Source: Eledone cirrhosa (Eukaryota). From it: a stretch of DNA of 64,000 nucleotides. The stretch is taken from assembly GCA_964016885.1 (NCBI GenBank), contig OZ024744.1, positions 29,326,001 to 29,390,000 on the forward strand. The letters run 5' to 3'. Made by a program: the position numbers and the translations under genes. Under the pieces are notes generated by a model, which saw only the letters and a program-made list of their open reading frames with translations, was not told the origin of the DNA and did no database searches. Within the stretch, counting starts at the first letter, position 1. Each line of letters begins with the position of its first letter. Of this stretch, positions 482 through 2,458 are shown in pieces.

Positions 482-2090
482 TTAAATGCTCTGAAATAGC
501 GATATATATGTGAAGATAGACATAGAATATTCGAAAATATTCTGTATGTTTATAATAAACATTTTGAAGACCTAATCGCTATAGAATAGAATACGTCACG
601 TATTACAATTAGATTCTCGATAAAAGCAAGGGAAGTAACCTACGCGTTTCATTCTTATTAGAAATCTTCAGGATTACATATCCAGTGCTTTTATCGAGAA
701 TGACACAGCTAGAGACTTATAGAATACTTAGCTGTGTACAGGAACTGGTTTGAAAGAGCGGTTGCCGGTCCGGCAGAAATTAGAAATTGGATTAAATGCT
801 CTGAAATAGCGATATATATGTGAAGATAGACATAGAATATTCGAAAATATTCTGTATGTTTATAATAAACATTTTGAAGACCTAATCGCTATAGAATAGA
901 ATACGTCACGTATTACAATTAGATTCTCGATAAAAGCAAGGGAAGTAACCTACGCGTTTCATTCTTATTAGAAATCTTCAGGATTACATATCCAGTACTT
1001 TTATCGAGAATGACACAGCTAGAGACTTATAGAATACTTAGCTGTGTACAGGAACTGGTTTGAAAGAGCGGTTGCCGGTCCGGCAGAAATTAGAAATTGG
1101 ATTAAATGCTCTGAAATAGCGATATATATGTGAAGATAGACATAGAATATTCGAAAATATTCTGTATGTTTATAATAAACATTTTGAAGACCTAATCGCT
1201 ATAGAATAGAATACGTCACGTATTACAATTAGATTCTCGATAAAAGCAAGGGAAGTAACCTACGCGTTTCATTCTTATTAGAAATCTTCAGGATTACAAA
1301 TCCAGTGCTTTTATCGAGAATGACACAGCTAGAGACTTATAGAATACTTAGCTGTGTACAGGAACTGGTTTGAAAGAGCGGTTGCCGGTCCGGCAGAAAT
1401 TAGAAATTGGATTAAATGCTCTGAAATAGCGATATATATGTGAAGATAGACATAGAATATTCGAAAATATTCTGTATGTTTATAATAAACATTTTGAAGA
1501 CCTAATCGCTATAGAATAGAATACGTCACGTATTACAATTAGATTCTCGATAAAAGCAAGGGAAGTAACCTACGCGTTTCATTCTTATTAGAAATCTTCA
1601 GGATTACATATCCAGTGCTTTTATCGAGAATGACACAGCTAGAGACTTATAGAATACTTAGCTGTGTACAGGAACTGGTTTGAAAGAGCGGTTGCCGGTC
1701 CGGCAGAAATTAGAAATTGGATTAAATGCTCTGAAATAGCGATATATATGTGAAGATAGACATAGAATATTCGAAAATATTCTGTATGTTTATAATAAAC
1801 ATTTTGAAGACCTAATCGCTATAGAATAGAATACGTCACGTATTACAATTAGATTCTCGATAAAAGCAAGGGAAGTAACCTACGCGTTTCATTCTTATTA
1901 GAAATCTTCAGGATTACATATCCAGTGCTTTTATCGAGAATGACACAGCTAGAGACTTATAGAATACTTAGCTGTGTACAGGAACTGGTTTGAAAGAGCG
2001 GTTGCCGGTCCGGCAGAAATTAGAAATTGGATTAAATGCTCTGAAATAGCGATATATATGTGAAGATAGACATAGAATATTCGAAAATAT
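481..2090 (-). repeat. Tandem array of a 310-bp unit (5 full copies plus a partial), each with a minus-strand hammerhead ribozyme (retrozyme-like satellite A)
   Basis: attaaatgctctgaaatagc recurs at 481, 791, 1101, 1411, 1721 and 2031, and the copies are nearly identical. Confidence 0.97.
635..677 (-). ncRNA. Type I hammerhead ribozyme of the 310-bp unit (further copies at 945-987, 1255-1297, 1565-1607, 1875-1917)
   Basis: The minus strand reads gtaatc-CTGAAGA-t-ttct-aata-agaa-t-GAAA-cgcg-TA-ggttac. This gives a full core, stem I gtaatc/ggttac, stem II ttct/agaa, palindromic stem III ACGCGT and a GUA cleavage triplet. It is enclosed by a 16-bp perfect inverted repeat (613-628/686-701). Confidence 0.88.
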
Positions 2091-2342
2091 TAATACGGGA
2101 TGTTTGTTTACAAACACACCGAGCATTATAATAAATGTTCGGTGAATCCATACGTGCATATATATATGTGTGCATGTATGTATATATATATATACATACT
2201 ACTGTACGTCGGTATACATATATGTATGTACGTGTACATACTTATATTTAAGTAACAGCCGTACTAAGAGTGGGAAATGAAATATCGTTTCATTTTTTCC
2301 GTTTATCGTTTTCGGTGCACCCGGCCGATTAACCCACTCGAT

Positions 2343-2350
2343 ATGCAAAT
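2343..2350 (+). promoter_or_regulatory. Octamer motif ATGCAAAT, present in nearly every ~419-bp monomer about 100 bp upstream of the ribozyme cleavage site
   Basis: Exact octamer in cgatATGCAAATtggg, also retained in the divergent monomers (~5454, ~10349). A promoter function is inferred, not shown. Confidence 0.45.
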
Positions 2351-2417
2351 TGGGCTACTCAGCCGTTAATATGCATAAGGTAAGTATATACGTTCAACAA
2401 TCTGGCAGGAAGGTATA

Positions 2418-2458
2418 CGTTGCTGACGATAGCTAACAAGCTTGAAACTAGTACAGCG
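2418..2458 (+). ncRNA. Type I hammerhead ribozyme of the ~419-bp unit (first copy; one per monomer, last core at ~25576)
   Basis: Reads cgttg-CTGACGA-t-agct-aa(t/c)a-agct-t-GAAA-ctag-TA-cagcg, with stem I cgttg/cagcg extendable through ctggcag(g)aagg/cctttgtcag, stem II agct/agct and palindromic stem III ACTAGT. Predicted cleavage is after GUA (2453). Confidence 0.9.

What the first reader, a model, noticed from the sequence alone, without database searches (positions are those of the whole stretch)
635..2458. The two ribozymes co-vary and share a non-canonical U10.1-U11.1 core-adjacent mismatch
Seen: A and B have identical spacing (CUGANGA-U-4bp-AAUA-4bp-U-GAAA-4nt-UA) but different paired bases: stem II UUCU/AGAA versus AGCU/AGCU, stem III CGCG versus CUAG, and different stem I. 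The divergent B monomer (5538-5578) has cgatg/catcg instead of cgttg/cagcg, a double compensatory change. Known: position 10.1-11.1 is usually a G-C pair. Inference: this is a lineage-specific hammerhead subtype selected for structure, which strict descriptor searches could miss.
Basis: partly seen in the sequence, partly recalled or inferred. Interest (0 to 1): 0.75.

Follow-up and report, generated by a model that had tools for sequence, protein, structure and literature searches.

The report
Hammerhead retrozyme repeats with U·U mismatch
Two tandem DNA repeats in a large animal genome each carry a hammerhead self-cleaving RNA motif with a U·U mismatch beside the catalytic core; they fit the known "retrozyme" class, are predicted to cut themselves, likely in pairs, and the same mismatch is already described in axolotl.

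Summary
Satellite A (310 bp, minus strand, 5 copies) and satellite B (about 419-430 bp, plus strand, 47 copies) each carry a type I hammerhead motif. Both have the layout CUGANGA-U-4bp-AAYA-4bp-U-GAAA-palindromic 4 nt-UA.

Covariation supports all helices. In 12 lineages, 91% of cells pair against 58% in shuffles, and 12 of 14 pairs change on both sides.

Rfam finds none of them at gathering score, so "missed by standard searches" is correct. "Lineage-specific" is not correct:
- A U·U mismatch at the base of helix II is published for axolotl HHR_Amex2.
- Four metagenome sequences with other stems show the same layout.
- In this genome, position 10.1/11.1 is U·U in 34,210 copies and A-U in 3,925 copies of family A. 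It is G-C in family C, a homologue of B.

The elements match metazoan non-LTR retrozymes:
- low-GC tandem units;
- helix III of one A-U pair plus a palindromic tetraloop, which predicts cleavage as dimers;
- arrays ending at fixed positions in (TA)n;
- frequent head-to-head arrays;
- a Penelope-like fragment next door.

No RNA data were available. Verdict: a new member of a known kind, of moderate interest.

The parts
481..2091 (-). Satellite/retrozyme array A: 310-bp unit x 5.2, GC 34%
   Evidence: TRF; monomer GC; RNA fold -71.6 kcal/mol, z -3.68
635..677 (-). Hammerhead A, copy 1. Stem I GUAAUC/GGUUAC, core CUGAAGA, helix II U.U + UUCU/AGAA with loop AAUA, GAAA, helix III A-CGCG-U. Predicted cleavage after A17, between 641 and 640. 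The same motif lies at 945-987, 1255-1297, 1565-1607 and 1875-1917.
   Evidence: weak HH9 alignment
2089..3587 (+). Retrozyme array B (subtype with loop AACA): 424-430-bp unit x 3.5, GC 38%. It meets array A head-to-head at 2089-2091.
2418..2458 (+). Hammerhead B, first copy. Stem I CGUUG/CAGCG, core CUGACGA, helix II U.U + AGCU/AGCU with loop AACA, GAAA, helix III A-CUAG-U. Predicted cleavage after A17, between 2453 and 2454.
5538..5578 (+). Divergent B hammerhead with stem I CGAUG/CAUCG (compensated) but G12 changed to A. A duplicate lies at 10433-10473.
5912..8505 (+). Retrozyme array B (419-bp unit x 6.2)
10890..25878 (+). Retrozyme array B (419-bp unit x 36). It contains copies with C3 changed to G and one copy with G10.1 (15989).
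340..482 (.). (TA)n run abutting the 3' end of array A (3' as read on the minus strand)
3587..3777 (.). (TA)n run abutting the 3' end of array B. B arrays end at the same unit position (...CCGTTTAT) at 3587, 5854, 8505, 10749 and 25878.
   Evidence: contigs with a TA run behind 2306
3960..5209 (-). Likely Penelope-like retroelement fragment. 58-nt inverted repeats (3960-4017 and 5152-5209) enclose ORF 4213-5037. The ORF aligns to the C-terminal 275 residues of proteins of about 700 aa. An ORF duplicate lies at 9108-9932.
   Evidence: Pfam itself found nothing
50309..50375 (-). Solitary third hammerhead with U.U at 10.1/11.1. It has a 7-bp stem I (GAGAUUC/GAAUCUC), a helix II of UUC/GAA, and a normal 4-bp helix III (ACAG/CUGU, 8-nt loop).
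   Evidence: own model R1, 20.2 bits, E 0.004; sequence
45874..45904 (+). Hammerhead motif with canonical G10.1-C11.1 in another repeat. A second copy lies at 59818-59856; flanks are 91% alike over 327 bp.

Best explanation
Satellites A and B are tandem arrays of non-LTR retrozyme units, each carrying a type I hammerhead motif whose three helices are supported by covariation, and their transcripts are predicted to self-cleave after GUA, likely as dimers formed through the palindromic helix III.

Shown by the sequence and the calls:
- The full conserved core is present (CUGANGA, GAAA, A15.1-U16.1, A17).
- Stem I has 5-6 bp and runs on into the folded body of the unit.
- A shared internal loop lies in stem I: 5' GG-(A)UAU(A) and 3' UU-CC.
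- Helix II is 4 bp closed by U.U, with loop AAUA or AACA.
- Helix III is a single A-U pair plus a palindromic CGCG or CUAG.
- Units are AT-rich tandems of 310-540 bp.
- More than 38,000 copies lie in a 3.0-Gb genome.
- Arrays are often head-to-head, and their 3' ends sit at fixed unit positions next to (TA)n.

Inferred:
- Multimeric transcripts pair two neighbouring hammerheads through ACGCGU or ACUAGU, giving a 6-bp intermolecular helix III, and cut to unit length.
- A cellular RNA ligase circularises the monomers.
- A Penelope-like reverse transcriptase/GIY-YIG endonuclease copies them back into (TA)n tracts.
- The U.U at 10.1/11.1 is a tolerated, weaker closing pair, not a required novelty. 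It removes the purine N7 that contributes to the A9/G10.1 metal site, so it would lower rather than abolish activity, as published for axolotl HHR_Amex2.
For: Motif and chance: 54 rows against 1.78 expected in the window. Genome-wide, 37,736 matches to the U.U pattern against 0 for the reversed control.

Covariation: with 33 distinct hammerheads, 90.9% of cells pair against 72.8% in shuffles, 9 of 13 pairs change on both sides, and the score is 0.474 against 0.147 (0 of 500 shuffles reach it; slid controls at most 0.079). With 12 lineages, 91.1% pair against 57.9%, 12 of 14 pairs change on both sides, and the score is 0.852 against 0.199 (0 of 500).

Pair 2.3/1.3 in one fixed B core: U.G 4,370, G.U 975, U.U 146, G.G 45.

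Family C is homologous to B over the whole unit (62-65% identity; local matches down to E 2e-10). It has G-C at 10.1/11.1 and swapped pairs at 10.3/11.3 and 10.4/11.4.

The palindrome centre covaries: UA in 25 rows, GC in 7, unpaired in 1 of 33. Self-duplex energies are -7.5 kcal/mol (ACGCGU) and -4.8 kcal/mol (ACUAGU).

Unit RNAs fold better than shuffles: z -6.20 for B and -3.68 for A. GC is 32-38%.

Array ends and (TA)n: and 39 contigs of run X1 with a TA run behind position 2306. Head-to-head arrays appear in the listings. A Penelope-like fragment lies next door.

Literature (passages read): the retrozyme definition, axolotl dimers and the U U mismatch (PMC7229834); the canonical metazoan type I hammerhead with a 1-2 bp helix III and palindromic loop acting as a dimer (PMC4209133); the tandem/inverted insertions and (TA)n bias of Penelope-like elements (PMC8557442).
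Against: There is no RNA evidence. No RNA run was listed, so cleavage, circles and expression are untested.

Rfam's hammerhead models do not accept either motif.

In the window, 12 of 47 B copies carry changes at invariant core positions (C3 to G in 10, G12 to A in 2). Single stem changes inside arrays are uncompensated. Many genomic copies are therefore decaying DNA rather than working ribozyme genes.

Covariation counts rest on related paralogues. The rows were picked with a filter on stem II (at least 3 of 4 pairs), and the four metagenome rows were picked for paired stems, so stem II and those rows are not unbiased.

The Penelope link is indirect. Pfam finds no domain in the window's ORF, and the GIY-YIG/RVT_1 labels come from neighbouring clusters in the protein atlas.

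The simple cofold did not single out the helix III dimer.
Confidence: 0.78

Rival explanations
1. The U10.1.U11.1 mismatch defines a lineage-specific hammerhead subtype that is itself under selection. For example, it could act as an attenuator that keeps unit-length circles from re-cleaving.
For: At this spacing, U.U copies outnumber G-C copies 34,210 to 35. Both unrelated units A and B carry it, as does a solitary third motif at 50309-50375. Copies with U10.1 and a changed 11.1 are only 167 scattered singles.
Against: The mismatch is published for axolotl HHR_Amex2. It also occurs with other stems in four metagenome sequences, so it is not lineage-specific. Within family A, 3,925 of 13,145 exact-core copies have A10.1-U11.1 and form long arrays. 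Family C, a homologue of B, has G-C. Abundance reflects amplification of a few master copies, not per-site selection.
Confidence: 0.12
2. These are ordinary satellite DNAs spread by unequal crossing-over. The hammerhead would be an inherited relic with no present activity.
For: 12 of 47 B copies in the window have changes at invariant core positions, and array variants are uncompensated. Higher-order repeat structure and a segmental duplication of about 4.9 kb are visible. No RNA run was listed.
Against: Copies are dispersed over all large contigs as many short arrays and singles (listings). 3' ends sit at fixed unit positions next to (TA)n. Arrays are often head-to-head. Paired states dominate genome-wide at 96.5%. 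Between diverged families the core is intact and the stems are compensated.
Confidence: 0.08
3. The motifs are chance matches to a loose hammerhead descriptor.
For: Rfam models do not reach their thresholds.
Against: 54 rows against 1.78 expected. 37,736 matches against 0 for the reversed control. Covariation is far above the controls.
Confidence: 0.01

Closest known systems
Metazoan non-LTR retrozymes with type I hammerheads (Cervera and de la Pena 2020, NAR; coral, mussel, axolotl)
   Same: Low-GC tandem units of a few hundred bp, each with one type I hammerhead. Thousands of copies per genome. The unit RNA is predicted to fold into a stable, self-paired structure. They co-occur with Penelope-like elements.
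   Different: No RNA or cleavage data here. The paper says most invertebrate retrozyme hammerheads cleave efficiently (abstract) and have a longer helix III than the amphibian ones. These have the amphibian-like minimal helix III plus U.U.
Axolotl HHR_Amex2 (about 60,000 copies)
   Same: A U.U mismatch at the base of helix II in a retrozyme hammerhead. It is active in vitro, and more so as a dimer (22% cleavage in 1 h as a monomer).
   Different: [quoted passage not shown] Here a hairpin can form only the A15.1-U16.1 pair around a palindromic tetraloop, which is the description given for HHR_Amex1 and the newt motif. I could not compare the sequences, because figures are not held.
Newt satellite 2 / axolotl HHR_Amex1 dimeric hammerheads
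   Same: Helix III is one base pair plus a palindromic tetraloop. The motif sits in satellite-like tandem repeats of about 330 bp. Cleavage occurs as dimers.
   Different: Those are described as resembling the classical amphibian satellite motif, with the conserved loop contacts; Cervera and de la Pena 2014 describe G10.1-C11.1 as typical of canonical hammerheads. Here the closing position is U.U, or A-U in one subfamily.
Minimal hammerheads in pseudo-LTRs of Penelope-like elements (Cervera and de la Pena 2014; Lunse et al. 2017, not held and only cited by others)
   Same: Type I topology, palindromic positions around helix III, action as dimers, and an association with Penelope-like elements.
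   Different: Those have a long helix II (6-8 bp), a bulged base before 10.1, a conserved G10.1-C11.1, and no loop-loop contacts. A and B have a 4-bp helix II, a conserved loop 2 and a stem I internal loop.
Rfam Hammerhead_HH9 / Hammerhead_1 models
   Same: The core and the order of helices. A aligns end to end with HH9.
   Different: The score is 17.1 bits against a cut-off of 52 for A, and there is no hit for B. The U.U pair and the missing helix III stem are penalised.

Membership tests
Hammerhead ribozyme, type I | Conserved core C3-U4-G5-A6-N7-G8-A9 ... G12-A13-A14, the A15.1-U16.1 pair, and H17 (not G) at the cleavage site | tested here: met
   5 of 5 A copies and 35 of 47 B copies in the window have the whole core. 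10 B copies have C3 changed to G and 2 have G12 changed to A.
Hammerhead ribozyme, type I | Three helices around the core, with stem I open-ended, supported by compensatory changes | tested here: met
   12 of 14 pairs change on both sides. 91.1% of cells pair against 57.9% in shuffles.
Hammerhead ribozyme, type I | G10.1-C11.1 closing pair of helix II (typical, not absolute) | tested here: not met
   U.U in A and B. Genome-wide counts: U.U 34,210; A-U 3,925; G-C only in family C and a few others.
Hammerhead ribozyme, type I | Match to a curated Rfam hammerhead model at gathering score | tested here: not met
   0 hits in 64 kb. A scores 17.1 bits against 52 for HH9. B has no hammerhead hit at E up to 10.
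Hammerhead ribozyme, type I | Site-specific self-cleavage giving 5'-OH and 2',3'-cyclic phosphate ends | not testable with these tools
   No RNA run was listed. This needs in vitro transcription or RNA ends.
Metazoan non-LTR retrozyme | Short tandem repeats (about 150-450 bp) of low GC, each unit with a type I hammerhead, and no LTR/PBS/PPT | tested here: met
   Units of 310 and 419-430 bp (related families reach 470-538 bp). GC is 32-38%. There is one motif per unit. I did not search for LTR, PBS or PPT features.
Metazoan non-LTR retrozyme | Unit RNA predicted to adopt a stable, highly self-paired structure | tested here: met
   z -6.20 (B) and -3.68 (A) against 100 shuffles each
Metazoan non-LTR retrozyme | Expressed as unit-length linear and circular RNA | not testable with these tools
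   No RNA holder was listed.
Metazoan non-LTR retrozyme | Co-occurrence with, and insertion features of, Penelope-like elements (partial tandems, inverted 5'-truncated copies, microsatellite targets) | tested here: inconclusive
   Head-to-head arrays and (TA)n flanks are seen. The neighbouring ORF resembles the C-terminus of 700-aa proteins whose atlas neighbours carry GIY-YIG and RVT_1. Pfam finds no domain in it, and I did not search the genome for a full element.
Dimeric (newt/axolotl-type) hammerhead | Helix III of 1-2 bp capped by a small palindromic loop, so that two motifs form an extended helix III | tested here: met
   ACGCGU (A) and ACUAGU (B, C). The centre pair covaries: UA 25, GC 7, 1 unpaired of 33. 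Duplex energies are -7.5 and -4.8 kcal/mol. Dimer cleavage itself is untested.

The most novel reading that the evidence does not exclude
The U.U closing pair, together with the one-pair helix III, is an evolved attenuator. It removes the N7 ligand of the A9/G10.1 metal site and weakens helix II, so that only paired hammerheads in multimeric transcripts cut and the finished circles stay intact. It arose independently in amphibian retrozymes and in this animal's retrozymes. The U.U, A-U and G-C families within one genome then form a natural allelic series for the role of 10.1/11.1.
Probability: 0.15. Interest if true: 0.55.

Novelty: new member of a known kind. Interest (0 to 1): 0.35.

Why it matters
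These elements make up at least about 0.5% of a 3-Gb animal genome: more than 38,000 exact-core copies (arithmetic). Rfam-based annotation does not see them, so ribozyme censuses of such genomes undercount.

One genome holds homologous retrozymes with U.U, A-U and G-C at 10.1/11.1. That is a ready-made series for testing what this pair and its metal site contribute.

The head-to-head junction of two different families (A and B) inside one (TA)n tract hints that the two arms of such insertions are copied from separate RNA templates. This bears on the still unknown integration mechanism of Penelope-like elements and retrozymes.

The central claim of a new hammerhead subtype does not hold, because the mismatch is already in print.

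Tried and rejected
- RNA evidence: the look-up of sequencing runs listed no RNA holder, so expression, ends and circles could not be examined. Laying DNA contigs of four runs gave variant frequencies only.
- Rfam at E-value threshold over 1-7000: the 150 rows shown were all matches to microRNA-type or other non-hammerhead models (mostly over TA/TG-rich stretches), none to a hammerhead model. 23 lower-scoring rows were not shown.
- The search of earlier findings returned nothing for this genome.
- The cofold of two copies gave a symmetric dimer only 2.6-3.4 kcal/mol better than two monomers and did not isolate the helix III duplex. I used simple duplex energies instead.
- Pfam found no domain in ORF 4213-5037 or in three of its long homologues.
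- The pattern for other U.U families with G or C at 10.2 gave only 6 dispersed, poorly paired hits. I left these out of the alignments, along with L037, L042 and the truncated copy L011:1485-1545.
I replaced it with plain-letter patterns for one core variant, so the 2x2 table covers only N7=C, loop AAUA, and leaves out the A-U state of pair 2.3/1.3.
- Lunse et al. 2017 is not held. A search for hammerhead plus cephalopod or satellite terms found nothing relevant.
- I did not name the organism.
- Motifs at 42881, 60039 and 60358 lack a convincing helix II or stem I, and I rejected them as hammerheads.
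Full report
WHAT IS THERE

The window (contig 28 of a 3.0-Gb, 1,796-contig genome) opens with a (TA)n run at 340-482. Next comes a 310-bp tandem repeat, array A (481-2091, 5.2 units). It is followed directly by a repeat of about 424-430 bp, array B (2089-3587), then another (TA)n run. Further B arrays lie at 5912-8505 and 10890-25878.

Each A unit carries CUGAAGA-U-UUCU-AAUA-AGAA-U-GAAA-CGCG-UA on the minus strand. Each B unit carries CUGACGA-U-AGCU-AAYA-AGCU-U-GAAA-CUAG-UA on the plus strand.

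A loose hammerhead pattern gave 54 rows against 1.78 expected from 100 shuffles, with a largest shuffle of 7. These rows are 5 A sites (each listed twice), 35 B sites and 9 rows elsewhere.

In Hertel numbering these are type I hammerheads:
- Stem I is open-ended: GUAAUC/GGUUAC in A and CGUUG/CAGCG in B.
- Helix II is four pairs closed by U10.1 and U11.1.
- Helix III is only A15.1-U16.1 around CGCG or CUAG.
- The cleavage site is after GUA.

AACA occurs in 4 of 47 B copies and AAUA in 43.
- The "divergent monomer" at 5538-5578 does carry the compensated CGAUG/CAUCG, but G12 is changed to A. It has a duplicate at 10433-10473.
- 10 of 47 B copies have C3 changed to G.

IS THE STRUCTURE SELECTED?

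Inside the window's arrays it is not visibly selected. Single changes such as ACAUUG with CAGCG stay uncompensated, as expected for recently amplified DNA copies.

Between families it is clearly selected. The own genome holds 37,736 matches to the U.U pattern, against 0 for the reversed control. Sampling loci showed several subfamilies:
- A1-A3;
- B1-B3 (units of 419-538 bp, 80-82% alike);
- family C (470-bp units, 62-65% identical to B along the whole unit, with local matches down to E 2e-10).

C has G-C at 10.1/11.1, U-A where B has G-C (10.3/11.3), and G-C where B has C-G (10.4/11.4). Its stem I is UAUUG/CAAUA where B has CGUUG/CAGCG.

On 33 distinct hammerheads, 90.9% of cells pair against 72.8% in shuffles. 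9 of 13 pairs change on both sides. The covariation score is 0.474 against 0.147 (0 of 500 shuffles reach it; slid controls at most 0.079).

On 12 lineage representatives, including four metagenome sequences, the figures are 91.1% against 57.9%, 12 of 14 pairs, and 0.852 against 0.199.

Caveats: the rows are paralogues. They passed a filter of at least 3 of 4 helix II pairs. The four metagenome rows were picked for paired stems.

An independent genome-wide count used one fixed B core variant. Pair 2.3/1.3 is U.G in 4,370 copies, G.U in 975, U.U in 146 and G.G in 45. That is 96.5% paired, and the mismatched copies are scattered singles.

A and B show no detectable similarity outside the hammerhead. 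The best local match is the 25-nt core, at E 0.06. Even so, they share the spacing, loop 2, and an internal loop in stem I (5' GG-(A)UAU(A), 3' UU-CC). This loop probably serves the loop-loop contact; that is an inference.

THE U.U POSITION

At the same spacing, G10.1-C11.1 occurs only 35 times in the genome against 6 for the control. In the A+B frame, U.U occurs 34,210 times.

The position is not fixed, however. 4,154 copies have a non-U at 10.1. Of these, 3,925 are an A subfamily with A10.1-U11.1, forming long 310-311-bp arrays. That compares with 9,220 A copies with U.U.

Copies with U10.1 and a changed 11.1 number only 167, as scattered singles.

A solitary third hammerhead at 50309-50375 (minus strand) also has U.U, with a normal 4-bp helix III. 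Another repeat, at 45874 and 59818, has a G-C hammerhead.

A scan of a metagenome collection with the U.U pattern gave 66 loci. Four distinct sequences (L059, L064, L088, L092) have 6 of 6 stem I pairs, at least 3 of 4 helix II pairs and a palindromic helix III, all with other stem sequences. About 47 loci from one sample are a different hammerhead family. Seven loci sharing one unpaired sequence, and two further unpaired singletons (L072, L104), look like chance matches.

The feature is also in print. [quoted passage not shown] It shows 22% self-cleavage in an hour as a monomer and much more as a dimer.

"Lineage-specific" therefore fails. U.U is a recurrent, tolerated variant. G10.1 contributes a nitrogen ligand to the metal site formed with the A9 phosphate (passage read in PMC7151607). 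A uridine there should weaken that site; this is an inference.

WHAT THE ELEMENTS ARE

They fit metazoan non-LTR retrozymes (abstract and sections read):
- They are low-GC tandem units (32-38%) of a few hundred bp.
- Each unit has one type I hammerhead.
- Copy numbers are very large.
- The unit RNAs fold far better than shuffles (z -6.20 and -3.68), with stem I running on into the body.

Cervera and de la Pena 2014 (passages read) describe the canonical metazoan type I hammerhead. It has a 6-bp helix I, a 4-bp helix II, and a helix III of 1-2 bp capped by a 2-4-nt palindromic loop, which cleaves as a dimer. They call G10.1-C11.1 "highly conserved".

Here the helix III words ACGCGU and ACUAGU are perfect palindromes. 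Their centre pair covaries (UA 25, GC 7, one unpaired of 33). Their self-duplexes are worth -7.5 and -4.8 kcal/mol. I therefore predict cleavage as dimers in multimeric transcripts.

HOW THEY SPREAD (INFERRED)

B arrays in the window end at the same unit position (...CCGTTTAT) followed by (TA)n, at 3587, 5854, 8505, 10749 and 25878. Two of these five are copies made by a duplication of about 4.9 kb. 39 contigs of run X1 and 2 of X6 show a TA run behind the same position.

The 3' end of array A, as read on the minus strand, abuts (TA)n at 481.

Genome listings show many arrays arranged head-to-head: a block of minus-strand units, then a block of plus-strand units.

Craig et al. 2021 (passages read) describe exactly such partial tandems, with an inverted 5'-truncated copy and a (TA)n target bias, for Penelope-like elements.

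Between the B arrays lies a 1.25-kb piece bounded by 58-nt inverted repeats. Its 274-aa ORF aligns (36% identity, E 2e-53) to the C-terminal end of proteins of about 700 aa. The nearest named clusters of those proteins in the protein atlas carry HTH_animal, DUF8422, GIY-YIG and RVT_1. This points to a Penelope-type fragment, but Pfam itself finds nothing in it.

A 2026 preprint (abstract and passages read) argues that animal retrozymes derive from Penelope-like elements.

WHAT REMAINS OPEN

There are no RNA data, so cleavage, dimer action, circles and the effect of U.U are predictions. Many genomic copies are dead. Rfam misses all of them, which is a practical gap in annotation.

VERDICT

The motifs are real, abundant and well supported by covariation. 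They are a new member of a known class, and their distinguishing mismatch is already described elsewhere.

Noticed in passing
window 2089-2091 (A minus-strand array meets B plus-strand array), flanked by (TA)n at 340-482 and 3587-3777: Two different retrozyme families meet head-to-head, 5' end to 5' end, with a 3-nt overlap (ATT) inside one (TA)n tract. In same-family head-to-head arrays elsewhere in the genome, the two arms cannot be told apart. Here they must come from two RNA templates, which suggests priming from both sides of a break.
   Followed up: partly
window 3960-5209 (ORF 4213-5037, minus strand); the ORF is duplicated at 9108-9932: A 1.25-kb piece with 58-nt inverted ends encodes the C-terminal part of an animal protein family of about 700 aa. 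The family's relatives carry GIY-YIG and RVT_1 labels, so this is likely a 5'-truncated Penelope-like element. Its YIG-like and following residues look degenerate.
   Followed up: partly
window 3587-8505 and about 8503-13400: A segmental duplication of about 4.9 kb copies the TA run, the Penelope-like fragment, two divergent B units (with G12 changed to A) and the start of a B array. Matching motif positions are 5543/10438 and 6095/10986.
   Followed up: no
window 50309-50375 (minus strand): A solitary hammerhead with U.U at 10.1/11.1 but a regular 4-bp helix III and a 7-bp stem I. It lies opposite ORF 50313-50789 and next to a C2H2 zinc-finger ORF (49321-50154).
   Followed up: partly
window 45874-45904 and 59818-59856 (plus strand): Two copies of a repeat (91% identity over 327 bp) carry a hammerhead motif with G10.1-C11.1, stem I UUUUGU/AUAAAA and a near-palindromic helix III (AUAUGUAU). 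The second copy has an insertion in helix II.
   Followed up: partly
window 28774-30870, 37409-40543 (minus strand), 46873-47445 (plus strand): ORFs with RVT_1 (one with zf-RVT) and an Exo_endo_phos endonuclease. These are LINE-type retrotransposons, not Penelope-like.
   Followed up: no
L055-L120 (metagenome loci), about 47 from one sample: Another abundant type I hammerhead family: CUGAAGA-U-GCCU-AAUAA-AGGU-GAAA with CAUG or CUAG palindromes and stem I UUAGA/UCUAA. It is often at contig ends and is presumably a retrozyme of another eukaryote.
   Followed up: partly
L049-L054 (G000:C1:1238357-1243296): The A subfamily with A10.1-U11.1 also has one extra C in the 3' strand of stem I (GACUUAC instead of GAUUAC). 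This turns G2.3.U1.3 into G-C and leaves a bulged U. Units are 311 bp long.
   Followed up: partly
window 2150-2250, 2570-2670 and other B units: The TA/TG-rich part of each B unit gives sub-threshold Rfam matches to mir-297, mir-466 and mir-3149-type models (up to 53 bits against a cut-off of 90). These are low-complexity hairpins, not evidence of microRNAs.
   Followed up: no
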